The translations under genes were made by a program, and so were the position numbers. The notes under the pieces are model-generated. The model did no database searches. It was not told the DNA's origin and saw only the letters and a list, made by a program, of their open reading frames with translations. From a virus, in IMG/VR virus record IMGVR_UViG_3300030620_000002, positions 1 to 43,383 of that record: a stretch of 43,383 bases of DNA. One strand, 5' to 3'. This document shows positions 23,199 through 41,400 of this stretch, piece by piece (the stretch's first letter is position 1; each line of letters starts with the position of its first letter).

Positions 23199-23205
23199 CG
23201 AAGCA

Positions 23206-23234
23206 AGCCTAGCAGCGGCCCATGGTGATAGCAA
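23206..23234 (-). promoter_or_regulatory. Promoter TTGCTA-17-TAGGCT for the RHH gene, positioned for a leaderless mRNA
   Basis: The reverse complement reads TTGCTAtcaccatgggccgctgcTAGGCTtgcttcgATG, with 7 nt between the -10 box and the ATG. Confidence 0.45.
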
Positions 23235-23245
23235 GGGGTTTATCC

Positions 23246-23274
23246 TTGACGGTCGCCTGATAGCAAGCTAGCAT
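23246..23274 (+). promoter_or_regulatory. Early promoter TTGACG-17-TAGCAT, positioned for a leaderless or near-leaderless mRNA
   Basis: TTGACGgtcgcctgatagcaagcTAGCATctagggaaATG, with 8 nt between the -10 box and the ATG at 23283. Confidence 0.55.
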
Positions 23275-23282
23275 CTAGGGAA

Positions 23283-23840
23283 ATGGCTGCGGAAGGCATC
23301 GAGATCCAGAGGGTCGTGAACGCACTGCTGCGCTGGCGCGGCAACGTGAAGGCGGCCGCGGACGAGCTGGGGATCCGGCGGAAGAGCCTCTATGAGCGCA
23401 TCCAGCGCGCCGGCATCGACCTCCAGGCGATCCGCCATGCGTCCCCCTCCGTGAGCGAGTTCCGGGGCATGCCCCGTATGCCCCCCGTGCCCCGGGACAT
23501 GTCCCGTGAGGGGGTGACCCGTAGTGTCCCGAAATCTGCTAGTGCCCCGTACCAAAGCACGCCTCAGGGGCCTACCGTGACGGGCATGCAGCAGGCCACC
23601 GCGGAACCACCCTTCGCACCGTCGCACAGCAAGCCGCGACTCCCGCGCGTCCTGCCCCGCGACCAGGAGCGGCTCCGCGCCGCCAAGATCGAGATCATCG
23701 CCCGCTTCCGCATCGAGACCGACGAGCAGGCGATCCACGACCAGTTCATGGCGGAGGCGTTCGACGGCTGGCTCGAGGACAAGCTGGCGGTCGAGGGTGC
23801 CCGTCCGGCGGAGCGGCCGCAGCGGAAGAAGGCCCCGTGA
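23283..23840 (+). CDS. Fis-type HTH (HTH_8) regulator, first gene of the early operon (185 aa)
   Basis: VNALLRWRGNVKAAADELGIRRKSLYERIQRAGIDL is a Fis/NtrC-type HTH. Confidence 0.7.
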   Translation: MAAEGIEIQRVVNALLRWRGNVKAAADELGIRRKSLYERIQRAGIDLQAIRHASPSVSEFRGMPRMPPVPRDMSREGVTRSVPKSASAPYQSTPQGPTVTGMQQATAEPPFAPSHSKPRLPRVLPRDQERLRAAKIEIIARFRIETDEQAIHDQFMAEAFDGWLEDKLAVEGARPAERPQRKKAP

Positions 23841-33831: not shown

Positions 33832-35538
33832 ATGCTGAAGGTGGGCGCCGGGTTCCAGCTCGCGATCGAGCACGTCGAGGACGTCGTCGCGATCATCGGC
33901 CGCCGCGGCCGCGGGAAGACGTCGACCGCGGCCGTGCTCGTCGAGGAGCTCCACCGCGCGCGGCACCGGTTCTGCGTCGCGGATCCAGTCGGGGTCTGGC
34001 ACGGGCTCAAGTCCTCGAGGGACGGGAAGTCCCCCGGCCTCCCGGCGATCGTGATGGGCGGCGATCACGGGGACGTCCCCCTCGAGGCGACGGCGGGGCG
34101 GGTGATCGCCGACTTCGTAGCGACCTCGGACAGCTCCGTCGTCCTCGACTTCCTGCACTTCCGCAAGGCCCACATGAGCCGCTTCATGACCGACTTCCTC
34201 GAGGAGCTCTACACCAAGAGCCGGCGGGCGCTCCACCTGGTGCTTGACGAGGCCGACAAGTTCATCCCGCAGCGCGTGGACGGCAGCAACGCGCAGCTGG
34301 TCGGCGCCGCCGAGGACGTCGTCAAGATGGGCCGGGCCCGGGGGTTGCTGCCCATCCTCATCACGCAGCGGCCAGCCTCGCTCAACAAGAACGCGCTCTC
34401 GCAGGCGGGCCTGCTGATCGCGCATGGCCTGACCTCGCCCCACGACCGCAAGGCCGTCGACCTCTGGGTGAGGGAGAACGCCACCGAGGAGCAGCGCAAG
34501 GCCTTCCACGCCTCGCTCGCCGGGCTCGACCGGGGCGTCGCGTGGTTCTGGCAGCCGGAGGCCGAGATCTTCCGCCAGGTGTCCGTGCGGGAGCGCGCCA
34601 CGTTCGACTCGTCGTCGACGCCGAAGGCCGGGGGCCATCGCGCCGCGCCGAAGGTCGTCGCGAAGGTCGACCTGGAGCAGCTCGAGAAGCGGATCCGGTC
34701 GACCATCGAGGAGCGGAAGGCGAACGACCCGAAGGAGCTGCGGCGCAGGATCGGCGAGCTCGAGCGCCAACTGGCGAAGCCGCCCACGCTGGCGCCGGCG
34801 ACGGTGGAGCGGGTCGAGGTCCCCATCCTGGAGGCGCCCACGGTGAAGCGCCTCGAGGCCGCGCTCGCGAAGGTGGACCGGCAGGCCGAGCGCCTCACCG
34901 CCGACGTCCAGCGCCTGGTCGACCTACAGGCTGACGTCAAGGCCCGCCAGGCGGAGATCCGGTCAGCCCTGATCACGCGCTCGGAGCGCGCACGACCGGC
35001 CGCGGCGCCGCCGCGCGTCTCGACGACGCCAGCGCCGCCTCGCCCTGCCCCGCGGCCGGCGCAGGGATCCGTCGGGGGCGGCCTGCAGCGGATCCTCGTC
35101 GCCCTCGCGCAGCGGCCGCAGGGACTGACGATCAAGCAGGTCGCGCTACGCGCGGGGCTGTCCAGCCGGAGCGGCACCTTCTCGACGTACGTCAGCCGCT
35201 GCCGCCAGCAGGGCTGGATCGCGGGCGGCAGCAAGGAGGTCCTCCGGATCACGGATGAGGGCCTCGAGGCGCAGGGGCCCTTCGAGCCCCTGCCCACGGG
35301 TGCCGGGCTGCTCGCCTACTGGTCGAGCCAACTCGGGGGTGGCGCTGCCAGGCTCCTCGAGGCGGTCGCTGCCGCCTACCCTGCCGAGCTGAGCAACGAC
35401 GAGGCCGCGGCCGCCGCGGGCCTCTCTGGGCGCAGCGGCACCTTCTCGACGTACGTGAGCCGCCTCCGCGGCCTGCAGCTGATCGACGGCGCGCGCGGGA
35501 GCGGCCGCCTGCGCGCGTCCGATGAGCTCTTCGAGTGA
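33832..35538 (+). CDS. HerA/FtsK-like P-loop ATPase (DUF87-type) with two C-terminal wHTH-like repeats (568 aa)
   Basis: Walker A is IIGRRGRGKTS and Walker B is HLVLDEADKF. LPILITQRPASLNKNALSQAGLLIAHGLTS also fits the family. A coiled-coil lies in the middle. The repeat GLS.RSGTFSTYVSR.R occurs twice at the C-terminus. Confidence 0.75.
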   Translation: MLKVGAGFQLAIEHVEDVVAIIGRRGRGKTSTAAVLVEELHRARHRFCVADPVGVWHGLKSSRDGKSPGLPAIVMGGDHGDVPLEATAGRVIADFVATSDSSVVLDFLHFRKAHMSRFMTDFLEELYTKSRRALHLVLDEADKFIPQRVDGSNAQLVGAAEDVVKMGRARGLLPILITQRPASLNKNALSQAGLLIAHGLTSPHDRKAVDLWVRENATEEQRKAFHASLAGLDRGVAWFWQPEAEIFRQVSVRERATFDSSSTPKAGGHRAAPKVVAKVDLEQLEKRIRSTIEERKANDPKELRRRIGELERQLAKPPTLAPATVERVEVPILEAPTVKRLEAALAKVDRQAERLTADVQRLVDLQADVKARQAEIRSALITRSERARPAAAPPRVSTTPAPPRPAPRPAQGSVGGGLQRILVALAQRPQGLTIKQVALRAGLSSRSGTFSTYVSRCRQQGWIAGGSKEVLRITDEGLEAQGPFEPLPTGAGLLAYWSSQLGGGAARLLEAVAAAYPAELSNDEAAAAAGLSGRSGTFSTYVSRLRGLQLIDGARGSGRLRASDELFE

Positions 35539-35927
35539 GCGAGCGCCGTACGATCACGATCCCGGGTCTGCCGGTCGGAAAGCCGCGGCAGACCCGGCGC
35601 GACCGCTGGGCCAGGCGGCCGGCGGTGCTCCGATACCGGGCCTGGGCCGACACCGCCCGAGCCGCGGTGCTCGCCGCCCTCGGCGCCCACGCCCTCGACC
35701 AGGTCCCGCTCGAGGTCCACGTCCTCGCCTGGTTCCCCCTGCCCCAACGCCGCCGCCCGGGCGTCAGGCCTGGCTGGCCTTATCGGCAGAAGCCCGACGC
35801 CGACAACGTCATCAAGGCGGTCTGTGACGCCCTCTGGGCGCGGGACGAGCTCATCGCGGGATCCTCGTGCTGGTGCTCCTGGGACGACGGCCGCGGACCT
35901 CGACTGGAGGTCTGGTGGAGGGACTGA
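35535..35927 (+). CDS. rusA: RusA-family Holliday junction resolvase
   Basis: TIPGLPVGKPRQ...RQKPDADNVIKAVCDALW matches the RusA catalytic motif (KPDxDNxxKxxxDAL). Confidence 0.85.
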   Translation: MSERRTITIPGLPVGKPRQTRRDRWARRPAVLRYRAWADTARAAVLAALGAHALDQVPLEVHVLAWFPLPQRRRPGVRPGWPYRQKPDADNVIKAVCDALWARDELIAGSSCWCSWDDGRGPRLEVWWRD

Positions 35928-36121
35928 CGCCGGAGCAGCAGGAGATCCTCGAGCGCCTGCCGGCGGCGGTCGTCGAGCTGCTCGTCGAGGAGTTCCGTGC
36001 CCTGGGCCCGTCCAGGTCGGGCGAGATCCGCCTGGTCCTCGCAGTCGTGCGAGGCGCCGTCAGGGCGGAGCGCTCGTACATCGAGCCGCCGCGCCGGTGG
36101 GCCCGCCACCCGCGCGACTGA
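35915..36121 (+). CDS. Hypothetical small protein (68 aa)
   Basis: GTG 35915 lies in the frame of track ORF 35867..36121. It is the last gene before a 136-bp intergenic gap. Confidence 0.4.
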   Translation: MEGLTPEQQEILERLPAAVVELLVEEFRALGPSRSGEIRLVLAVVRGAVRAERSYIEPPRRWARHPRD

Positions 36122-36139
36122 CCCGGCCGCCGGAATGGC

Positions 36140-36168
36140 TTGACCGCGCGGCTGTCAGCCCGTACCCT
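36140..36168 (+). promoter_or_regulatory. Candidate promoter TTGACC-17-TACCCT upstream of the endolysin gene
   Basis: cTTGACCgcgcggctgtcagcccgTACCCTctg lies in the only sizeable intergenic gap of the + strand block. Confidence 0.4.
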
Positions 36169-36257
36169 CTGACCTGAGCCGCGTGGCTCCGGCGAGGTAG
36201 CCCGCGACGCAAGCGGGCCCGCCGGGGGGGATTGCCCGGTGCCGAGGGCCCTCCGAC

Positions 36258-36899
36258 ATGCCTCTCACGAGGCGAGTCGGAGGATCCTTGCCGGCAGACG
36301 CAGACCGGGCCACCGAGCCGCCCCTCTCGACATTCGACCGGGCCTTCACCCTCATCGTCCTCGCCGAGGGCGGCGCCGCCTTCAGCGACCACCCCCACGA
36401 CCCCGGCGGGCCCACGAAGTGGGGCGTCTCCTGGCGCGCGGTCCGCCTGCGCGATGCGGACCGCGACGGCCGCTTCGACTTCGACCTCGACTTCGACGGC
36501 GACGTTGATGTCGAGGACATCAGGCTGATCGAGCGCCACCACGCCGAGCAGCTCTTCGCGGAGGACTACTGGGCCCCCGCCGGCTGCGAGCGGTGGCCAG
36601 CGCCGGTGGCGATCGCCGTCGCCGACGCCGCGTACAACCAGGGCCCGCGGACCGCCGTCGCGATGCTCCAGCGCGCGGTCGGCCCCGGAGCGGGGCGGGA
36701 CGACGGGATCCCCGGACCCCGCACCCGCGCCGCCGTCGAGGCGCTCGAGGCCGCCGGGCGCGTCCGCCAGCTCCTCGCCGACTTCGCGACCCACCGAGCG
36801 GACCGCTACCGGCAGCACCCGCGCGTCGACACCTTCTTTCGCGGCTGGATCGCGCGGCTCATCGAGCTCGACAGGGCTCTGGCTGGAGGTTGCCAGTGA
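36258..36899 (+). CDS. Endolysin, glycoside hydrolase family 108 plus PG_binding_3-like C-terminus
   Basis: LAEGGAAFSDHPHDPGGPTKWGVS matches the GH108 motif (EGGYxxxxxDPGGxTxxGI). ADAAYNQGPRTAVAMLQRAV...DDGIPGPRTRAAV...FFRGWIARL fits the peptidoglycan-binding part. Confidence 0.85.
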   Translation: MPLTRRVGGSLPADADRATEPPLSTFDRAFTLIVLAEGGAAFSDHPHDPGGPTKWGVSWRAVRLRDADRDGRFDFDLDFDGDVDVEDIRLIERHHAEQLFAEDYWAPAGCERWPAPVAIAVADAAYNQGPRTAVAMLQRAVGPGAGRDDGIPGPRTRAAVEALEAAGRVRQLLADFATHRADRYRQHPRVDTFFRGWIARLIELDRALAGGCQ

Positions 36900-37981
36900 A
36901 GCGACGACGCTGGACGGGTCTGTGCGTAGTGCTCGTGGCGATGGTGCCCGGGCTGGTGATGGCGCACGGCTGCGCGAGCTTCCCGATCCAGCTCGAGCGC
37001 GAGGACTGGCCCGTGCGGGACGACGGGACCCCGTACGCGAGCTGTCAGCTCGGTGCCAACGTGCCGGAGGACATGCCGCGGGTGTCGTGCGACTGCGCGA
37101 CCGAGGGCCCGGTGGTCGACTTCGTCGGGACCTGGGAGATCCGCGAGTGTCCCGCGCCGCCACCTCCACCGCCTCCACCGCCGGAGCCCGACCCCGAGCC
37201 CGATCCTGACCCGACGCCTCCTCCGCCCCCTCCGCCGGCAGGCACGTGTCCGCCCATCACGGCCTTCCGTTGCTTCGACGGCGACTCAACGGCGCTCGCC
37301 GGCGTCGAGGTCTCGGCTGCCGAGCGCCGCGTCATCGCCTCAAGGCCGGGCTACCTGATCGAGGTGCACGAGCGAGGGCAGCACCTCCGGGCCAAGATCC
37401 GGACCCCGGACCCCGGCGCCGAGCCCGACCTGCGCCGCTGGACGGAGGACGTAGCCGCCGAGCTGCGTCGCGCCGGCTACTGCGCCTACAGCGGCGATCC
37501 AGGCGGCAGCTCGCCCGACGAGATCCTGATCGTCGTGGACGACCCGGAGGGCCTCGTCGACGCCGAGCAATGGGACCTCGCGAAGTGCGGCGCGGTCGAC
37601 CCCGACAAGCGCTATTGCGTTGGGAGCGATCTCGAGCACCAGCCGTTCGACTGCGTGCTCCGGGACTCGGGTCCCGACCTGGGATCCGGTGGCCCGGGCG
37701 ACCCCGGGCCCGAAGACGAGCCGGAGGGCTACTGCACCGTCAGGGGGCACGGCAACGCGGACGGGCCGCTGCGGTTCCCGACCATGCTCGCCGCGTGCCA
37801 GTTCTCGCTCGATTGGGCGAGCGACGCCGGGCACACGACGCGCCACACGAGCGGCGGCGAGACGTGGTTCTACGACGAGGGCCGGGGCTGGTATCGCCGC
37901 GCGACGTGCGAGCGGTACGACTCGCCGGGTGGGCGTCGGCTCAGCGGGCCCGAGTGGTTCGGCGTCGAGTGCTTCCCGTGA
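36896..37981 (+). CDS. Secreted Cys-rich lipoprotein candidate with a poly-Pro/Asp-Pro linker (361 aa)
   Basis: GTGA coupling to the endolysin gene. Signal/lipobox-like VKRRRWTGLCVVLVAMVPGLVMAHGCAS. Linker PAPPPPPPPPPEPDPEPDPDPTPPPPPPPAG. Many Cys residues. Confidence 0.6.
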   Translation: MKRRRWTGLCVVLVAMVPGLVMAHGCASFPIQLEREDWPVRDDGTPYASCQLGANVPEDMPRVSCDCATEGPVVDFVGTWEIRECPAPPPPPPPPPEPDPEPDPDPTPPPPPPPAGTCPPITAFRCFDGDSTALAGVEVSAAERRVIASRPGYLIEVHERGQHLRAKIRTPDPGAEPDLRRWTEDVAAELRRAGYCAYSGDPGGSSPDEILIVVDDPEGLVDAEQWDLAKCGAVDPDKRYCVGSDLEHQPFDCVLRDSGPDLGSGGPGDPGPEDEPEGYCTVRGHGNADGPLRFPTMLAACQFSLDWASDAGHTTRHTSGGETWFYDEGRGWYRRATCERYDSPGGRRLSGPEWFGVECFP

Positions 37982-38124
37982 GCAGCGGGCTCGCCGTGTG
38001 CTCGGGGTGCGGCCGAGAGGTGCACCAGGATGGCGAACGCCCACCAGACTGGAGGTATCCGCGCGGCTGGCGCCACTGCAAGCGCCGGTGGACGCCGCCG
38101 AAGCCGCGGCCGGGCAGCCGAGCG

Positions 38125-38457
38125 CTACTCCTGCTCGCGCTCGGCCTTGCGGCGCCGCCGGGACTCGGCGCGGAGCCGCCCCTGCTCCTTCCGCTCCTCG
38201 GGCGTGAGGCTCTGCCAGTACGCGCGGCTCACGTCCCCGGCGGAGGCCCGGGCCTTCGAGGGGCCTCGGACACGCCCGCCGAGGGACCCGAGAGCGCGGG
38301 CAGCCTCGGTCGTGTTCGCGGCTTGGATCTCGGCCCGGGCCGCGTCCGCGAGCGCCAAGAGTGCCTCCCGCTGCGATGGGTGGGTCTCCTCGCGGCCGTC
38401 GGCGTAGATGACGACCCGGGTGCGCTCGATGCGGCCCACCCCGGGGATCGAGACCAT
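38125..38457 (-). CDS. Orphan protein 3 of the minus-strand cassette (110 aa, basic C-terminal tail)
   Basis: The ATG abuts the upstream TAG. High GC3. ...SRAYWQSLTPEERKEQGRLRAESRRRRKAEREQE. Confidence 0.6.
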   Translation of the reverse strand: MVSIPGVGRIERTRVVIYADGREETHPSQREALLALADAARAEIQAANTTEAARALGSLGGRVRGPSKARASAGDVSRAYWQSLTPEERKEQGRLRAESRRRRKAEREQE

Positions 38458-38703
38458 CTACAGCTCGAACCGGTGGCGGTGGCCGCCACCCGCGGGGTAG
38501 GGGTAGGCGGCGAAGCCCTCGCCGCGCCGCACCATCACGATCGTCGGCACGGGGAGGCCCCGTCCCGCAGCCCACTCACGCACGCCCTCCGGGCTCCTGC
38601 CTGGCGTCGGGCTGTCGACGTGGATTCGGAGCCCGTGCTCCTGGGCGGCCAGCATCACGGACTGTCCGGGCCGACACCAGATCGTATTCGCGTTCGTGCT
38701 CAT
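38458..38703 (-). CDS. Orphan protein 2 of the minus-strand cassette (81 aa; alternative start 38745)
   Basis: ATG 38703 is preceded by a GAGGAGAG RBS. MSTNANTIWCRPGQSVMLAAQEHGLRIHVDSP... Confidence 0.55.
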   Translation of the reverse strand: MSTNANTIWCRPGQSVMLAAQEHGLRIHVDSPTPGRSPEGVREWAAGRGLPVPTIVMVRRGEGFAAYPYPAGGGHRHRFEL

Positions 38704-38787
38704 CTCACTCTCCTCGGGCCGCCCATCGGCCCAGGTCTGATCCATCTCGTCGGGGGCGGGACCGAAGTCCTCCCCCGGCGGCAGGGA

Positions 38788-39051
38788 TCAGAGAGTGGGG
38801 ATCCGGTGCAGCCGATAGCCGGCCGCTTCCGCTTGCGTGATCATCTCGTCCGCGAGCGGCAGGTCCTCGTCGTGCGTCATGGTGAGTCCGCCATACACCT
38901 CGGCGGATCCGTACGCGATGCCGTCGACCACCACGACCGGGAGCCCGTAGCTGCTCGCGGCGTGCTCGGTCGTCAACACCCCGTACCGCGCCTCGGCGCG
39001 ATTCCCCGGCTCCGTGTACGTCATCACCCGTATGCTCATCGTGTCCTCCAT
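38788..39051 (-). CDS. Orphan protein 1 of the minus-strand cassette (87 aa; alternative start 39039)
   Basis: The ATG lies 6 nt downstream of a TATATT -10 box, so the mRNA would be leaderless. GC3 is about 88% by direct count. MEDTMSIRVMTYTEPGNRAEARYGVLTTEHAASSYGLPVVVVDG... Confidence 0.65.
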   Translation of the reverse strand: MEDTMSIRVMTYTEPGNRAEARYGVLTTEHAASSYGLPVVVVDGIAYGSAEVYGGLTMTHDEDLPLADEMITQAEAAGYRLHRIPTL

Positions 39052-39057
39052 ACCCCC

Positions 39058-39086
39058 AATATACCGCCAGCGCTGGCGGGTGTCAA
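39058..39086 (-). promoter_or_regulatory. Near-consensus sigma70 promoter TTGACA-17-TATATT driving the minus-strand cassette
   Basis: The reverse complement reads TTGACAcccgccagcgctggcggTATATTgggggtATG. The spacer is almost entirely the palindromic operator. Confidence 0.65.
39064..39079. promoter_or_regulatory. Operator candidate O1: perfect 16-bp palindrome CCGCCAGCGCTGGCGG
   Basis: Read directly. It lies in the -35/-10 spacer of the cassette promoter. Confidence 0.6.
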
Positions 39087-39117
39087 GGTGGATCGACAGC
39101 GCGGGGCCACCCTTCTT

Positions 39118-39133
39118 CCGCTAGCGCTGGCGG
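39118..39133. promoter_or_regulatory. Operator candidate O2: CCGCTAGCGCTGGCGG (one mismatch from O1)
   Basis: Centre-to-centre spacing from O1 is 54 bp. A + strand TAGACT -10-like hexamer (39134-39139) follows immediately. Confidence 0.55.
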
Positions 39134-39178
39134 TAGACTCTGAGCCGACTCGCTCCGGACCGCCCACGCAGAATCAAC

Positions 39179-39236
39179 GACTTACGGGCGCCCCGCCGGC
39201 ACCGCACCCCTCCCCCGGGTGCGATTCGCGTAAGTC
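39179..39236 (+). other. Nested hairpin structure in the + strand leader (possible regulatory RNA structure)
   Basis: The outer stem pairs gacttacg (39179-39186) with cgtaagtc (39229-39236). The inner stem pairs cgcaccc (39203-39209) with gggtgcg (39217-39223), with a 7-nt C-rich loop. Confidence 0.4.
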
Positions 39237-39252
39237 CAGTGAATCCGCCAAC

Positions 39253-39882
39253 TTGCAGAGCCTCCAGGAGGCGCCCGAAGGGGCGCACCCTACCCCGCAC
39301 CCCCGGGGAGCCACGATCGGCGCTCCTGGAGCCTCTGAGGCGGTCCCGCTCGTCGAGGGCTGGGCCGGGCGCTACCAGACGCACTCCCGGCAGCCTGATG
39401 GCTCCTCAGCGGGCTCTGCGGGCTGGCAGGGCCTCGCGACCCTCCGCACCCCCGCCTGGCGCGGGCTGCGGCTCTGGGGCGCGGCGGAGACGGCACCACA
39501 GAGCGGCGCCCTCGTCGCCGACGCCCTCGAGACGTGGCAGGGGGCGGAGCTGGTGGGCGGGCTCCAGCTCGACGGCTGGCGGGTCGGCCCGTGGCAGGTG
39601 AGCCCCTCCGTGGCGGCCGGCGGCGTGGTCGCGCTCGGGAGCGACCGTGATCGGGTGCGGGTGACGCCGACGCTGCTCGCGGCGGGGGCTCGACTCGAGG
39701 GCTTCCCCGTGCGGCTCTACGTCGGCCTCGGGAGGCATGGAGCGACGAGCGACGGGCTCGTGCTCATCGCGGACGCGCTGGTGCGGCTCCCGAGCACTGA
39801 CGGGCGCCTTGCGTTGCACTCGCGCTGGATCAGCGGGGAGGCGGCGTCGTGGCGCTACGGGATCGTGGGGAGGTGGTGGTGA
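39253..39882 (+). CDS. Hypothetical protein (start uncertain: TTG 39253 or GTG 39553)
   Basis: GC3 is about 80-90% in this frame from roughly 39253 and about 67% upstream of it. TGATG coupling to the next gene. No ATG in the frame. Confidence 0.4.
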   Translation: MQSLQEAPEGAHPTPHPRGATIGAPGASEAVPLVEGWAGRYQTHSRQPDGSSAGSAGWQGLATLRTPAWRGLRLWGAAETAPQSGALVADALETWQGAELVGGLQLDGWRVGPWQVSPSVAAGGVVALGSDRDRVRVTPTLLAAGARLEGFPVRLYVGLGRHGATSDGLVLIADALVRLPSTDGRLALHSRWISGEAASWRYGIVGRWW

Positions 39883-40250
39883 TGGACGCCCTACTCATCC
39901 TCGCAGCCTGCGGGCTCGCCCTCATCGTCATCGACTGGATCGCGGCGAGCCGGCGGGCCTCCGAGGACCCCTACTGGATCCGCGTCCGCAAGCGAGCCCG
40001 GGAGCTGGGCTCGGATGGGTGCACGGGTGGCGGCGCCCTCTTCCGCGACTGCTGCCTCGAGCACGATATCCACGAGCGCACCCACCGCACGCCCGACGGA
40101 CACCCGATCACCGAATACGAATCAGACCGGCGTTTCCTCCACTGCATGCAGCGGCGCTCCTTCGTCGGCTGGTGGACGCCGATAGGGTGGAGCCGGTACG
40201 CCGCCGTCCGCATCTGGCGGCGCTGGCGCGCGTGGCGGGCGGGGAGCTGA
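39882..40250 (+). CDS. Membrane-anchored protein with a PLA2-like CC..HD motif (122 aa)
   Basis: TM segment MDALLILAACGLALIVIDWIAA, then DGCTGGGALFRDCCLEHDIHERTH. Confidence 0.55.
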   Translation: MDALLILAACGLALIVIDWIAASRRASEDPYWIRVRKRARELGSDGCTGGGALFRDCCLEHDIHERTHRTPDGHPITEYESDRRFLHCMQRRSFVGWWTPIGWSRYAAVRIWRRWRAWRAGS

Positions 40251-40254
40251 GGGT

Positions 40255-40725
40255 GTGGACGAGATCGGACAGGGGCTCAAAGCCATCGCCGCCCTCGACC
40301 CCCTTGGGATCGCGCTCGTCATCATCCTCGTCCTGGCAATCGGTGCCGTTTGCGCTCTTGCAATCGCTTGGAAGCGTGGCTACTTCCGCTCGCACACAGA
40401 CCTCGCGCGGCGCTCCGCGGAACTCGCGCGGGACATCGCGACCGTGCAGCGTGACGTGCATCAGCTCCAGTCGGACTGGCGCACCCTGGAGGGGAGGCTG
40501 GACGTGTTCGCGATAGATCAGGCGCGGTGGCAGCCGACGCTCGAGGAGGGGCGTCGCGTAGCGGATGACATCCAGCGCACGCTACGACGCCTGACGTCCG
40601 AGGTGGCCCGCCTCGGCGGAGTCACTTCGGCGCTGCTGACGATGGTCCAGCCGTCGACGCCGCACGGCGGGAATCAGGCGTTGGGTGTACTGGAGGAGAC
40701 CCCGGACCCGGAGCGTAGGAAGTGA
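40255..40725 (+). CDS. N-terminally anchored coiled-coil protein (i-spanin-like or holin-associated candidate, 156 aa)
   Basis: GTG with a GGGGAG RBS. TM segment LGIALVIILVLAIGAVCALAIAW, then a heptad-like region (DIATVQRDVHQLQSDWRTLEGRLD). Confidence 0.55.
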   Translation: MDEIGQGLKAIAALDPLGIALVIILVLAIGAVCALAIAWKRGYFRSHTDLARRSAELARDIATVQRDVHQLQSDWRTLEGRLDVFAIDQARWQPTLEEGRRVADDIQRTLRRLTSEVARLGGVTSALLTMVQPSTPHGGNQALGVLEETPDPERRK

Positions 40726-40937
40726 TCAGGACGCACACCTACGCGGTGCTCGAGGTGAGCCCCGCCGCGTACGAGGAGATCCGCTCCCTGCTCGAGGCCG
40801 CGGGCTACGGCCACGTCCGCGTCAACCGAGGCGGGCAGGTCCTGCTCGACATGCACGGCATCGCCCTGGCCCCTGACAGCTCGACCCGCGGGGGGGGCGT
40901 GGAGCCCCCCGGGGGCGGACCTCCGGGTGGGCCATGA
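40722..40937 (+). CDS. Hypothetical small protein (71 aa)
   Basis: GTGA coupling. MIRTHTYAVLEVSPAAYEEIRSLLEAAGYGHVRVNRGGQVLLDMHGIAL. Confidence 0.45.
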   Translation: MIRTHTYAVLEVSPAAYEEIRSLLEAAGYGHVRVNRGGQVLLDMHGIALAPDSSTRGGGVEPPGGGPPGGP

Positions 40938-41389
40938 GGACGCCCCCAGGGCCCCGCTCTGCGCTGAACGTCGGCGATCGGAGCGGCGACAACGAGGTTC
41001 TCGGCTGGACCCGGCGAGAGCTAACGATCCCGCGGGCGATCGTCGATGCCTCGGAGCTGGCGGCCGCCCTCGTTCTCGACCTGGTAGAGGCCAGGGTGCC
41101 GCAAGTCGGGACAGCACTCGACGAGGTCGCGGTCCGCCTCGGTCGTGCCGCCTCACGAGCGTTGCAGCGGCTGGTGGCCGATGAGCGGCGAGCCGCGCGG
41201 CGCTGGGGCAAGACGAAGCGGAGGCAGGGGTCCCGACGTCGCGGCCGAGCGGCCCCGGCGGGGGCACCCCCCCCGGTGGCCTGGGTCCTCCCACGGGCCC
41301 GGGCCGAACGGGTTGCCCCCCCCGCGGATATTTTTCAGTCTCCGGCCCCGCCCGGGGGGCATTGGGCATTCAGGTGGGCGGGGCAGTAG
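40934..41389 (+). CDS. Hypothetical protein (151 aa); the 3' third overlaps the candidate cos region and may not be coding
   Basis: ATGA coupling. The first ~95 aa have ordinary composition; the tail is Arg/Pro-rich. Confidence 0.4.
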   Translation: MRTPPGPRSALNVGDRSGDNEVLGWTRRELTIPRAIVDASELAAALVLDLVEARVPQVGTALDEVAVRLGRAASRALQRLVADERRAARRWGKTKRRQGSRRRGRAAPAGAPPPVAWVLPRARAERVAPPADIFQSPAPPGGHWAFRWAGQ

Positions 41390-41400
41390 GCCGCCGGCCG
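41260..41400. other. Candidate cos/packaging-recognition region upstream of the Nu1-like gene
   Basis: Two C8 tracts (41267-41274 and 41316-41323) share a similar context. An isolated AT patch ggatatttttcagtctcc lies at 41326-41343, and a G6 tract at 41354-41359. The position corresponds to lambda cos. Confidence 0.3.

What the first reader, a model, noticed from the sequence alone, without database searches (positions are those of the whole stretch)
39058..39139. Second genetic-switch-like region: paired 16-bp palindromes in back-to-back promoters
CCGCCAGCGCTGGCGG (39064-39079, a perfect palindrome) fills the 17-nt spacer of the minus-strand promoter TTGACA/TATATT. A second copy with one mismatch, CCGCTAGCGCTGGCGG (39118-39133), lies 54 bp away centre-to-centre, about five helical turns. 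It sits immediately upstream of a + strand TAGACT hexamer that faces the downstream late genes.

This resembles a dimeric repressor controlling two divergent promoters. It is separate from the RHH/Fis-HTH switch at 23199-23282, so the phage appears to carry two operator-controlled divergent regions. I did not see this palindrome elsewhere in the window.
Basis: seen in the sequence. Interest (0 to 1): 0.62.

Follow-up and report, generated by a model that had tools for sequence, protein, structure and literature searches.

The report
Operator pair of a phage accessory cassette
Two copies of a 16-base palindrome sit at the head of a small backwards-facing gene cassette in a temperate phage and most likely let the cassette's own last gene switch off its very strong promoter; this layout is already known from phage anti-defence (anti-CRISPR-type) operons, so it is a new example, not a new kind of switch.

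Summary
CCGCCAGCGCTGGCGG (39064-39079) fills the spacer of the minus-strand promoter TTGACA-17-TATATT, the best sigma-70 match in this complete 43.4-kb, 72% GC phage genome. A one-mismatch copy (39118-39133) lies 54 bp away and abuts a plus-strand TAGACT. No other copy exists in the genome.

Palindromes are common in this genome, so the evidence is repetition and conservation. Four elements give six sites with consensus CCGC-N-AGCGCT-N-GCGG; only symmetric positions 5 and 12 vary. In three cassettes with different cargo genes (window, sister phage G003, contig L017) the palindrome occupies the same promoter spacer and the last gene belongs to the same 110-aa basic protein family. A phage 94% identical on both flanks (G001) lacks cassette, palindromes and that gene together. 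One cargo family also occurs under a different palindrome without the 110-aa gene.

Best reading: an autoregulated accessory cassette of the acr-aca type, not a second lysis/lysogeny switch. The second palindrome occurs only in the window and G003. Its hexamer is conserved but has no -35, so the plus-strand promoter is unproven (about 0.35-0.4). The binding protein is inferred from linkage only; it matches no known DNA-binding domain.

This scan had already described the adjacent cassette (e1-3421572) this way.

The parts
39064..39079 (.). O1: perfect 16-bp palindrome CCGCCAGCGCTGGCGG. It occupies positions about -28 to -13 (the spacer) of the cassette promoter and is the primary operator.
   Evidence: The same position is kept in G003, L017 and L029.
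39058..39086 (-). Cassette promoter P(-): TTGACA (39086-39081), 17-nt spacer, TATATT (39063-39058).
   Evidence: 11/12. (best sigma-70-like site in the genome). Conserved as TGGACA/TATATT in G003, TTGACA/TATATT in L017 and TTGACA/TACGAT in L029.
39118..39133 (.). O2: second palindrome CCGCTAGCGCTGGCGG, 54 bp from O1. Either an auxiliary operator or the operator of a candidate outward promoter.
   Evidence: Kept with the identical 54-bp spacing and no indels in G003. Absent in L017 and L029.
39134..39139 (+). Candidate -10 hexamer TAGACT of a plus-strand promoter P(+). No recognisable -35. It overlaps a GANTC motif.
   Evidence: G003 has TAGAGT. The next 27 nt are only 12/27 identical. GANTC overlap. 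Function not shown.
39087..39117 (.). Inter-operator DNA with the conserved block ATCGAC-N-GCGCGGGGCCA. The GTCGAT(T)CC part just upstream of the -35 is also present in L017.
   Evidence: 30/38 identical over 39080-39117, no indels.
38125..38457 (-). Last cassette gene, 110 aa, pI 10.7, with a near-invariant basic C-terminal 61 residues. Candidate autorepressor that binds O1 and O2.
   Evidence: Homologs are the terminal gene in G003 (81% identical) and L017 (67%). Charge. No known domain.
38458..38745 (-). Cargo gene 2 (95 aa from ATG 38745, or about 81 aa from the ATG at 38703 that follows a GAGGAG site). An orphan.
   Evidence: Replaced by other genes in G003.
38788..39051 (-). Cargo gene 1 (87 aa from ATG 39051, or 83 aa from ATG 39039 behind GGAGGA). 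Acidic, pI 4.7.
   Evidence: The family also occurs in G003, L003 and L034.
39140..39345 (+). Leader-like stretch after the candidate P(+). The first 27 nt are divergent, followed by conserved blocks. The first conserved in-frame start of gene X is TTG 39253. Contains 4 further GANTC sites.
   Evidence: The fold is not conserved.
37983..39858 (.). Mosaic module: cassette, operators, leader and the divergent gene X allele. It is replaced in phage G001 by a 75-aa plus-strand gene and a signal-peptide-bearing allele of X.
   Evidence: 94% identity on the flanks 35002-37982 and 39859-40873..

Best explanation
The two palindromes are binding sites (operators) for one symmetric, probably dimeric, repressor that controls a mobile accessory-gene cassette.

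O1 lies in the 17-nt spacer of the cassette's near-consensus sigma-70 promoter, so a bound protein would exclude RNA polymerase. The most likely repressor is the cassette's own last gene product, a 110-aa protein with a basic C-terminal half. That would give negative autoregulation: a burst of transcription of the small cargo genes when the DNA enters a cell, then shut-off. Shut-off would also stop strong transcription running head-on into the endolysin and lipoprotein genes.

O2 lies 54 bp (about five helical turns) upstream and binds the same protein. It either tightens repression cooperatively or also represses a weak, -10-only outward promoter (TAGACT) that reads towards gene X and the lysis/packaging genes.

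Shown here:
- the sequence anatomy;
- conservation of the operator at the same promoter position;
- co-occurrence of the operator with the 110-aa gene family;
- presence or absence of the whole unit between near-identical phages.

Inferred, not shown:
- protein binding;
- the identity of the binder;
- repression;
- activity of the plus-strand promoter;
- the function of the cargo (anti-defence is a guess by analogy).
For: 1. Anatomy. O1 fills the spacer of the genome's best promoter. O2 is its mirror copy abutting a TA-N3-T hexamer.

2. Footprint across elements. Six sites from four elements read CCGC-N-AGCGCT-N-GCGG, with variation only at symmetric positions 5 and 12. Between the window and G003, the 82-bp control region is 70/82 identical with no indel. 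The first cargo gene's body is 19/47 identical and the 27 nt after the plus hexamer are 12/27 identical.

3. Linkage with the 110-aa gene. Three cassettes with different cargo (window with 3 genes, G003 with 4, L017 with 5) all start with this promoter-operator and end with a member of the 110-aa family. L017 sits at a different place in a related phage, next to a holin-like gene and the lipoprotein gene.

4. Joint absence. G001 is 94% identical on both flanks and circular. It lacks the cassette, the palindromes and the 110-aa gene together.

5. The operator follows the regulator, not the cargo. The gene-1 family also occurs in L034 behind a TTGACA promoter carrying a different palindrome (TACCCGGGTAATAT, two copies 69 bp apart) with no 110-aa homolog, and in L003 with other repeats.

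6. Charge. Only the 110-aa protein is basic (pI 10.7; conserved C-terminal 61 aa pI 11.3). The cargo proteins have pI 4.7 and 6.4.

7. Precedent. In acr-aca operons IR1 always lies in the core promoter, and an optional similar IR2 lies just outside it (PMC9410906). Single Aca proteins repress neighbouring or second operons through repeated IRs, and some are not HTH proteins (PMC12282945, PMC13551039).
Against: - The 110-aa protein matches no DNA-binding family in Pfam, PHROGs, NCBIfam or PADLOC, and no PDB sequence.
- Its AlphaFold2 model is poor (pTM 0.30), and Foldseek gives nothing.
- The family is tiny, with 8 hits among 1.8 billion representatives. The linkage therefore rests on three cassettes that are related to one another, and the operator is too invariant for any covariation test between protein and site.
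- More distant small homologs (P0007, P0011) lie in unrelated contexts without such a promoter.
- O2 is absent from L017 and L029.
- The plus-strand promoter has no -35.
- No terminator was found after the cassette.
- No cargo gene matches any known anti-defence, defence or toxin family.
Confidence: 0.6

Rival explanations
1. The palindromes are operators, but the protein that binds them is not the 110-aa cassette protein. It is another regulator, either the phage's own (for example the RHH or Fis-type HTH proteins of the 23.2-kb switch) or a host factor. The cassette would then be a moron under prophage or host control.
For: The 110-aa protein has no recognisable DNA-binding domain. The phage encodes other regulators (HTH_8; an RHH-like 60-aa protein).
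Against: The operator travels with the 110-aa gene into a different genomic position (L017), and both are missing together from G001 and G002. A host-factor site would not be expected to follow one phage gene this closely.
Confidence: 0.17
2. Only O1 is functional. O2 with its TA-hexamer is a leftover of a local inverted duplication of the operator and -10 unit, with no promoter activity and no regulatory role.
For: O2 is missing from L017 and L029. The plus side has no -35. TAGACT shares 4/6 bases with TATATT, as expected of a decayed copy. Near-palindromes arise easily in this genome.
Against: O2, its exact 54-bp spacing and its hexamer are all retained in G003, while the 27 nt just beyond have diverged to 12/27 identity. 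Both O2 copies keep all 14 invariant operator positions.
Confidence: 0.15
3. The palindrome is the site of a MerR-type or other activator that turns the promoters on; it is not a repressor site.
For: The dyad lies centred in the spacer between the -35 and -10, the position that MerR-family activators use (own knowledge). The plus-strand promoter lacks a -35 and so might need an activator.
Against: MerR-type promoters have over-long 19-20-bp spacers. Here the spacer is the optimal 17 bp between near-consensus hexamers, so the promoter should be strong unaided. No MerR-like gene lies in the cassette.
Confidence: 0.04
4. The pair is not regulatory. It is either the terminal inverted repeats of a miniature transposable element flanked by a TA duplication, or a REP-like host repeat, or chance in GC-rich DNA.
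For: The two 16-mers are inverted repeats flanked outwardly by TA (I5). 16-bp near-palindromes are frequent in this genome.
Against: L017 and L029 have complete promoters with a single copy, so the pair is not an inserted unit. The motif is not scattered: there are 2 sites in this genome, 2 in G003 and none in G001 or G002. Exact-pattern hits in the large collections are few and unrelated. The same 16-mer twice within 54 bp has a chance expectation of roughly 0.001 (from 0.2 per genome).
Confidence: 0.04

Closest known systems
acr-aca operons (anti-CRISPR genes followed by an anti-CRISPR-associated repressor; Aca1 and Aca2 with IR1/IR2), PMC9410906 and PMC6765145
   Same: Both have a near-consensus constitutive promoter, an inverted-repeat operator inside the core promoter, and an optional second similar repeat just outside it. 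Small variable orphan genes come first and a conserved regulator gene comes last. Cargo is exchanged between cassettes that carry different regulators.
   Different: No cargo gene is a known Acr. The terminal protein has no HTH and no detectable relation to any Aca. Binding and repression are untested. The host is an unknown high-GC bacterium.
Aca11/Aca13 'bidirectional' regulation and Aca14 (RHH) control of neighbouring operons, PMC12282945 and PMC13551039
   Same: One small regulator acts through repeated palindromic sites at its own promoter and at a second promoter nearby. Aca13 and Aca14 show that such regulators need not be HTH proteins.
   Different: Here the second promoter is only a -10-like hexamer without a -35. 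It would read into phage lysis/packaging-side genes, not into a second anti-defence operon. It is present in only two of the four elements.
Phage morons such as lambda bor and lom (PMC3594210)
   Same: An independent transcription unit with its own promoter is inserted between genes that are adjacent in a close relative (G001). It lies in the late region, on the opposite strand.
   Different: Classic morons are usually single genes with a terminator and no dedicated operator or repressor. No terminator was found here.
immI region of Salmonella phage P22 (Arc/Mnt operators at the divergent Pant/Pmnt promoters); own knowledge, not checked here
   Same: It is a second operator-controlled region separate from the main immunity region. 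A small dimeric repressor binds a palindrome placed between the -35 and -10 and affects two oppositely directed promoters.
   Different: immI encodes an antirepressor and two RHH repressors that feed back on lysogeny. Nothing here links the cassette to the lysis/lysogeny decision, and no RHH fold was detected.

Membership tests
acr-aca type autoregulated anti-defence operon | Strong, near-consensus sigma-70 promoter at the head of the operon | tested here: met
   TTGACA-17-TATATT scores 11/12 and is the best site in the genome. It is conserved in G003, L017 and L029.
acr-aca type autoregulated anti-defence operon | Conserved inverted repeat (IR1) within the core promoter, optionally with a second similar IR nearby | tested here: met
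   O1 lies in the spacer in 4 of 4 elements. O2 lies 54 bp away in 2 of 4. Criterion taken from PMC9410906.
acr-aca type autoregulated anti-defence operon | Conserved regulator gene at the 3' end behind variable small cargo genes | tested here: met
   The 110-113-aa family is the last gene in the window, G003 and L017, and the cargo differs in each.
acr-aca type autoregulated anti-defence operon | Regulator carries a recognised DNA-binding domain (HTH in Aca1-12, RHH in Aca14) | tested here: not met
   No Pfam, PHROG, NCBIfam or PDB match. The AF2 model has pTM 0.30 and is helical with no Foldseek match. Only a basic C-terminus was found. Aca13 also lacks a canonical motif (PMC12282945).
acr-aca type autoregulated anti-defence operon | At least one cargo gene is a demonstrated or homologous anti-CRISPR or anti-defence protein | tested here: not met
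   All cargo proteins of the window, G003, L017 and L029 are orphans in Pfam, PHROGs, NCBIfam and PADLOC. No dedicated Acr library was available.
acr-aca type autoregulated anti-defence operon | Regulator binds the IR and represses the promoter | not testable with these tools
   This needs EMSA or footprinting and reporter assays. Transcript data were unavailable.
Moron (independent accessory transcription unit in a phage late region) | Inserted between genes that are contiguous in a close relative | tested here: met
   G001 is 94% identical on both flanks and has no cassette at this place.
Moron (independent accessory transcription unit in a phage late region) | Own promoter and own terminator | tested here: inconclusive
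   The promoter is present. No intrinsic terminator was predicted, and the 3' flank folds no better than shuffled sequence.
Immunity-type bistable switch (lambda OR-like) | Two divergently transcribed regulator genes that antagonise each other through shared operators | tested here: not met
   The plus side encodes no regulator. It carries a leader and then gene X, an allele of a secreted-protein gene in G001.
MerR-type activated promoter | Dyad in an over-long 19-20-bp spacer | tested here: not met
   The spacer is 17 bp in the window, G003, L017 and L029.
Miniature transposable element / REP-like repeat | The repeat unit occurs as a discrete insert or in many dispersed copies | tested here: not met
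   Single-copy promoters exist in L017 and L029. Only the two local sites occur per genome. The host chromosome was not available.

The most novel reading that the evidence does not exclude
The 110-aa protein founds a new, non-HTH class of Aca-like repressors, recognising CCGC-N-AGCGCT-N-GCGG through a basic helical C-terminal domain. It would mark anti-defence cargo in high-GC temperate phages. In the window and G003 it would also gate an outward, -10-only promoter whose hexamer and leader carry the densest GANTC cluster of the genome, that is, a promoter doubly controlled by a repressor and by DNA methylation that restarts late-gene transcription behind the inverted cassette.
Probability: 0.15. 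Interest if true: 0.6.

Novelty: new member of a known kind. Interest (0 to 1): 0.35.

Why it matters
If the 110-aa protein does bind this palindrome, the pair gives a new guilt-by-association marker. That marker consists of the promoter TTGACA-N-CCGCNAGCGCTNGCGG-TATATT together with the terminal gene. It could be used to find accessory, possibly anti-defence, genes in high-GC environmental phages, where current Aca-based searches, which rely on HTH or RHH domains, find nothing.

It would also add a DNA-binding family with no recognisable fold.

The comparison with G001 gives a clean natural with/without pair for testing what the cassette does.

Otherwise the regulatory logic is ordinary and already well described.

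Tried and rejected
- Rfam and tRNA scans of the genome found nothing.
- GenBank phages, blastn on 38000-41400: no match.
- Paired-palindrome pattern with Y/R at positions 5 and 12 in IMG/VR: no hit. The pattern was too strict, because G003 has A/T at those positions.
- Exact promoter-operator pattern in metagenome, genome and viral collections: L021-L028 are chance matches in lower-GC DNA with no -35 and no 110-aa homolog. Only L029 is genuine.
- Structured-RNA reading of the plus-strand leader: the window folds well (z = -4.6) but the G003 orthologue does not (z = 0.0). The T-to-C change in the 8-bp outer stem breaks a pair instead of compensating. Not supported.
- Coding reading of the leader: substitutions by codon phase are 9/12/15, with no clear third-position excess. 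Undecided.
- Conserved leader blocks in IMG/VR: found only in G003.
- Distant homologs of the 110-aa core (P0007, P0011): unrelated low-GC contexts, no comparable promoter. P0008 and P0010 are homing-endonuclease-like proteins whose W-x-x-L-TPEER repeats match DUF3106 (P0010). The NUMOD3 match in P0008 lies elsewhere in that protein. This is not usable as evidence of DNA binding.
- Structure route: the AF2 model was too poor (pTM 0.30) and Foldseek gave only noise.
- Profile against PDB: nothing significant.
- PADLOC and NCBIfam on all cassette proteins: nothing.
- Terminator after the cassette: none found.
- MITE with TA duplication, REP-like repeat, MerR-type activation and chance were each considered and rejected (see rival explanations).

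Full report
**What is there.** The window is a complete 43,383-bp viral genome from IMG/VR with direct terminal repeats and 72% GC. It is a temperate phage. It has a tyrosine integrase, a Fis-type HTH gene at the 23.2-kb divergent region, and RusA ahead of the lysis block. It also has a GH108 endolysin, a spanin-like protein, a Nu1-type small terminase and a large terminase that runs off the window end.

- CCGCCAGCGCTGGCGG lies at 39064-39079.
- CCGCTAGCGCTGGCGG lies at 39118-39133, 54 bp on.
- The minus-strand promoter is TTGACA (39086-39081), 17 nt, TATATT (39063-39058).
- TAGACT lies at 39134-39139.

The two units are mirror-image 18-mers, each palindrome abutting an outward-facing TA (I5). 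No further copy within two mismatches exists in the genome. The minus-strand promoter scores 11/12. It is the best of only two sites in the whole genome that reach 9/12; the other is the immunity-side promoter at 23246.

**Is it more than chance?** Palindromy alone is not. This GC-rich genome holds 88 16-bp palindromes with at most one mismatched pair, against a mean of 59 in 300 dinucleotide shuffles. Thirteen of them are perfect and at least 16 bp long. The signal lies elsewhere. The same 16-mer occurs twice, where 0.2 matches per genome are expected. The two copies are 54 bp apart in one of the few non-coding gaps. The motif is also conserved in other phages.

**Surroundings.** Third-position GC and ORF maps show three small minus-strand genes behind the promoter:
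- 38788-39051, giving 83 aa from the ATG at 39039 that follows GGAGGA;
- 38458-38745, 95 aa;
- 38125-38457, 110 aa.

They lie head-on to the endolysin gene (36258-36899) and a large lipoprotein gene (36896-37981). On the plus side, a stretch of about 200 nt without codon periodicity follows TAGACT. Next comes gene X, whose frame ends at 39882. After it come a PLA2-motif gene, a spanin-like gene, two small genes and the terminase genes. None of the three cassette proteins matches Pfam, PHROGs, NCBIfam or PADLOC.

**Relatives.** Four comparisons carry the argument.

1. *Sister phage G003* (IMGVR_UViG_3300037478_000562) has the cassette at the same place. It keeps both palindromes (CCGCCAGCGCTTGCGG in window orientation, twice), the exact 54-bp spacing, TATATT, a slightly weaker -35 (TGGACA), and TAGAGT on the plus side. 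Between the two phages:
   - the 82-bp control region is 70/82 identical with no indel;
   - the body of the first cassette gene is 19/47 identical;
   - the 27 nt after the plus hexamer are 12/27 identical.

   G003's cassette has four genes: a relative of gene 1, two unrelated small genes, and a 113-aa protein 81% identical to the window's 110-aa protein.

2. *Contig L017* (JGI 3300037722) carries a five-gene cassette whose first four genes are unrelated to those of the window. Its promoter reads TTGACA-g-CCGCAAGCGCTGGCGG-TATATT, and its last gene is a 112-aa homolog (67% identical). This cassette sits at a different position of a related phage, diverging from a holin-like gene and the lipoprotein gene. 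It has only one palindrome.

3. *Contig L029* (IMG/VR 3300036833_000417) has TTGACA-a-CCGCAAGCGCTTGCGG-TACGAT, again with one palindrome. The contig ends 435 bp later.

4. *Phage G001* (IMGVR_UViG_3300037515_000929) is 94% identical to the window over 35002-37982 and 39859-40873, and its contig ends overlap, so it is circular. At this place it has a 75-aa plus-strand gene and an allele of gene X with a signal peptide. It has no cassette, no palindrome and no 110-aa gene. G002 also lacks both.

The six operator copies from the four elements give CCGC-N-AGCGCT-N-GCGG. All 14 other positions are invariant, and variation is confined to the symmetric positions 5 and 12. That is the pattern expected of a dimer reading two half-sites.

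**Operator follows regulator, not cargo.** The gene-1 family (core VLTTxHAASSYGxPVxVVDG) also occurs elsewhere.
- In L034 it is the second gene behind a TTGACA promoter. That promoter's spacer and -10 carry a different palindrome (ATTACCCGGGTAAT). TACCCGGGTAATAT occurs twice, 69 bp apart, and there is no 110-aa homolog.
- In L003 it lies behind yet other repeats.

The only gene constantly linked to the CCGC...GCGG operator is the terminal 110-aa gene.

**The candidate binder.**
- Conservation: the family's C-terminal 60 or so residues are almost invariant (EAARALGSRGGRVRGPSKARASAGDVSRAYWASLTPEQRREQGRLRAESRRRRKAE), while the N-terminus varies.
- Charge: the protein has pI 10.7 overall and 11.3 for the conserved part. 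The two cargo proteins have pI 4.7 and 6.4.
- Structure: AlphaFold2 on the six-sequence alignment gives a weak model (mean pLDDT 68, pTM 0.30). It shows a long helix, a disordered Gly/Arg-rich loop and two confident C-terminal helices. Foldseek against the PDB gives only noise.
- Sequence searches: single-sequence and profile searches of the PDB are negative. A profile search of 1.8 billion representatives finds only 8 proteins.

A DNA-binding role is therefore an inference from linkage and charge, not from fold.

**The plus-strand side.**

*In favour of a promoter:*
- The hexamer is conserved (TAGACT, or TAGAGT in G003) next to strongly diverged sequence.
- Its geometry relative to O2 is the mirror of O1 and TATATT.
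My scan confirmed TTGACG-17-TAGCAT.

*Against:*
- No -35 is present at 16-18 nt.
- O2 is absent from L017 and L029.
- G001 manages without any promoter here.

*What a transcript would contain:* it would start near 39146 and carry about 107 nt before the first conserved in-frame start, TTG 39253, which has no Shine-Dalgarno site.

*Gene X:* in the window and G003 it lacks the signal peptide that G001's allele has. Amino-acid identities are 70% for G001-G003, 48% for window-G003 and 43% for window-G001.

*The leader:* it is 109/134 identical between the window and G003. I could not show that it is coding, since substitutions fall 9/12/15 by codon phase. I could not show that it is structured either, since fold z-scores are -4.6 for the window and 0.0 for G003.

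I put the chance that P(+) is a real, O2-controlled promoter at about 0.35-0.4. The alternative is that O2 is an auxiliary operator, like IR2 of acr-aca promoters, which lies upstream or downstream of the core elements (PMC9410906).

**Mechanism proposed.** On entry, host RNA polymerase fires the near-consensus P(-). The small acidic cargo proteins and the terminal basic protein are made. The basic protein then binds O1 as a dimer in the promoter spacer, binds O2 five helical turns away, and shuts the promoter. This limits cargo expression. It also removes strong transcription that would otherwise collide with late transcription of the endolysin and lipoprotein genes. If P(+) is real, the same protein also holds down an outward promoter that reads into gene X and the lysis/packaging side.

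The anatomy, conservation and linkage are shown. Binding, repression, timing and cargo function are inferred.

**Comparison with known systems.** The layout matches acr-aca operons feature by feature:
- consensus promoter;
- IR1 in the core promoter;
- optional IR2;
- variable small genes;
- conserved terminal regulator;
- cargo shared between cassettes that have different regulators (PMC9410906, PMC6765145).

Control of a second, neighbouring or oppositely directed promoter by the same regulator has been shown for Aca11, Aca13 and Aca14. Aca13 and Aca14 are not HTH proteins (PMC12282945, PMC13551039).

Membership is not established. No cargo gene is a known anti-defence gene, and the regulator has no recognised DNA-binding domain. 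My conclusion is that the unit works like an acr-aca operon and may be a new member of that class.

It also fits the moron definition (PMC3594210), except that no terminator was found. It is not an immunity-type bistable switch, because the plus side carries no regulator gene.

**Relation to earlier notes of this scan.** The adjacent cassette (38125-39051) was already followed up (e1-3421572) and read as an acr-aca-like self-regulated cassette. I re-derived that independently. I add:
- the operator consensus;
- the cassette-free relative G001;
- the single-operator cassettes;
- the L034 counter-example;
- limits on the plus-strand promoter claim.

The nested-hairpin note on the leader (e1-3421574) is not supported by the G003 comparison.

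**Verdict.** This is a new member of a known kind, of moderate-to-low interest. The open points are who binds the palindromes and whether the plus-strand promoter fires.

Noticed in passing
window 39104-39253; L006 3024-3180: The densest GANTC cluster of the genome: 5 sites in 150 nt, where about 0.3 are expected. The genome total is 91 against about 109 expected, so there is no depletion. One site overlaps the plus hexamer (TAGACTC), and the single substitution there in G003 (TAGAGTC) falls on the N of GANTC. G003 keeps 5-6 sites; one is lost and one is gained elsewhere. GANTC is the CcrM/HinfI-type methylation motif (own knowledge). This may hint at a methylation-sensitive element or an alphaproteobacterial host.
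   Followed up: partly
window 39039-39051, 38703-38720; L004 3215-3232, 3584-3601; L017 1410, 1734, 2022: Cassette genes in the window, G003 and L017 begin with a repeated junction, (ATG)GAGG(A/C)CACG-ATG-AGC/ACN, translated as ME[AD]TMS... or ...RPEESEMS.... These shared ribosome-binding junctions could serve as recombination points for swapping cargo genes.
   Followed up: no
window 39253-39882 versus L014 57-827 (G001): Gene X has a clear signal peptide in the cassette-free phage G001, with a TTG start overlapping the stop of the upstream gene. In the window and G003 that N-terminus is replaced by a non-hydrophobic stretch behind a conserved TTG with no Shine-Dalgarno site. The cassette-bearing phages may therefore have a non-exported or poorly translated allele. 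The window's allele is also the most diverged (43-48% aa identity).
   Followed up: partly
L034 2970-3052 (Logan SRR12927082 contig, 44.1 kb phage-like with integrase): A separate accessory cassette carries the same cargo family under a TTGACA promoter with a different palindrome. TACCCGGGTAATAT occurs twice, 69 bp apart, next to a divergent 75-aa orphan gene. This is an independent operator and regulator set, worth its own look.
   Followed up: partly
window, whole genome: 16-bp palindromes with at most one mismatched pair are over-represented: 88 against a mean of 59 and a maximum of 87 in 300 dinucleotide shuffles. Examples include paired CGGGGCATGCCCCG / CGGGACATGTCCCG at 23463-23506, just inside the early operon.
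   Followed up: no
window 39090-39101; L004 3162-3173; L017 1026-1037: A short block, GTCGAT(T)CC(A/C)C, directly upstream of the -35 is shared by the window, G003 and L017 but not L029. It may be an UP-like element or an additional protein site.
   Followed up: no
L015 6826-6955 and L014 1-130 (G001 contig ends): The ends of the 'linear' IMG/VR record G001 overlap by about 130 bp with one mismatch, so the genome is circular or terminally redundant and complete across this junction.
   Followed up: yes
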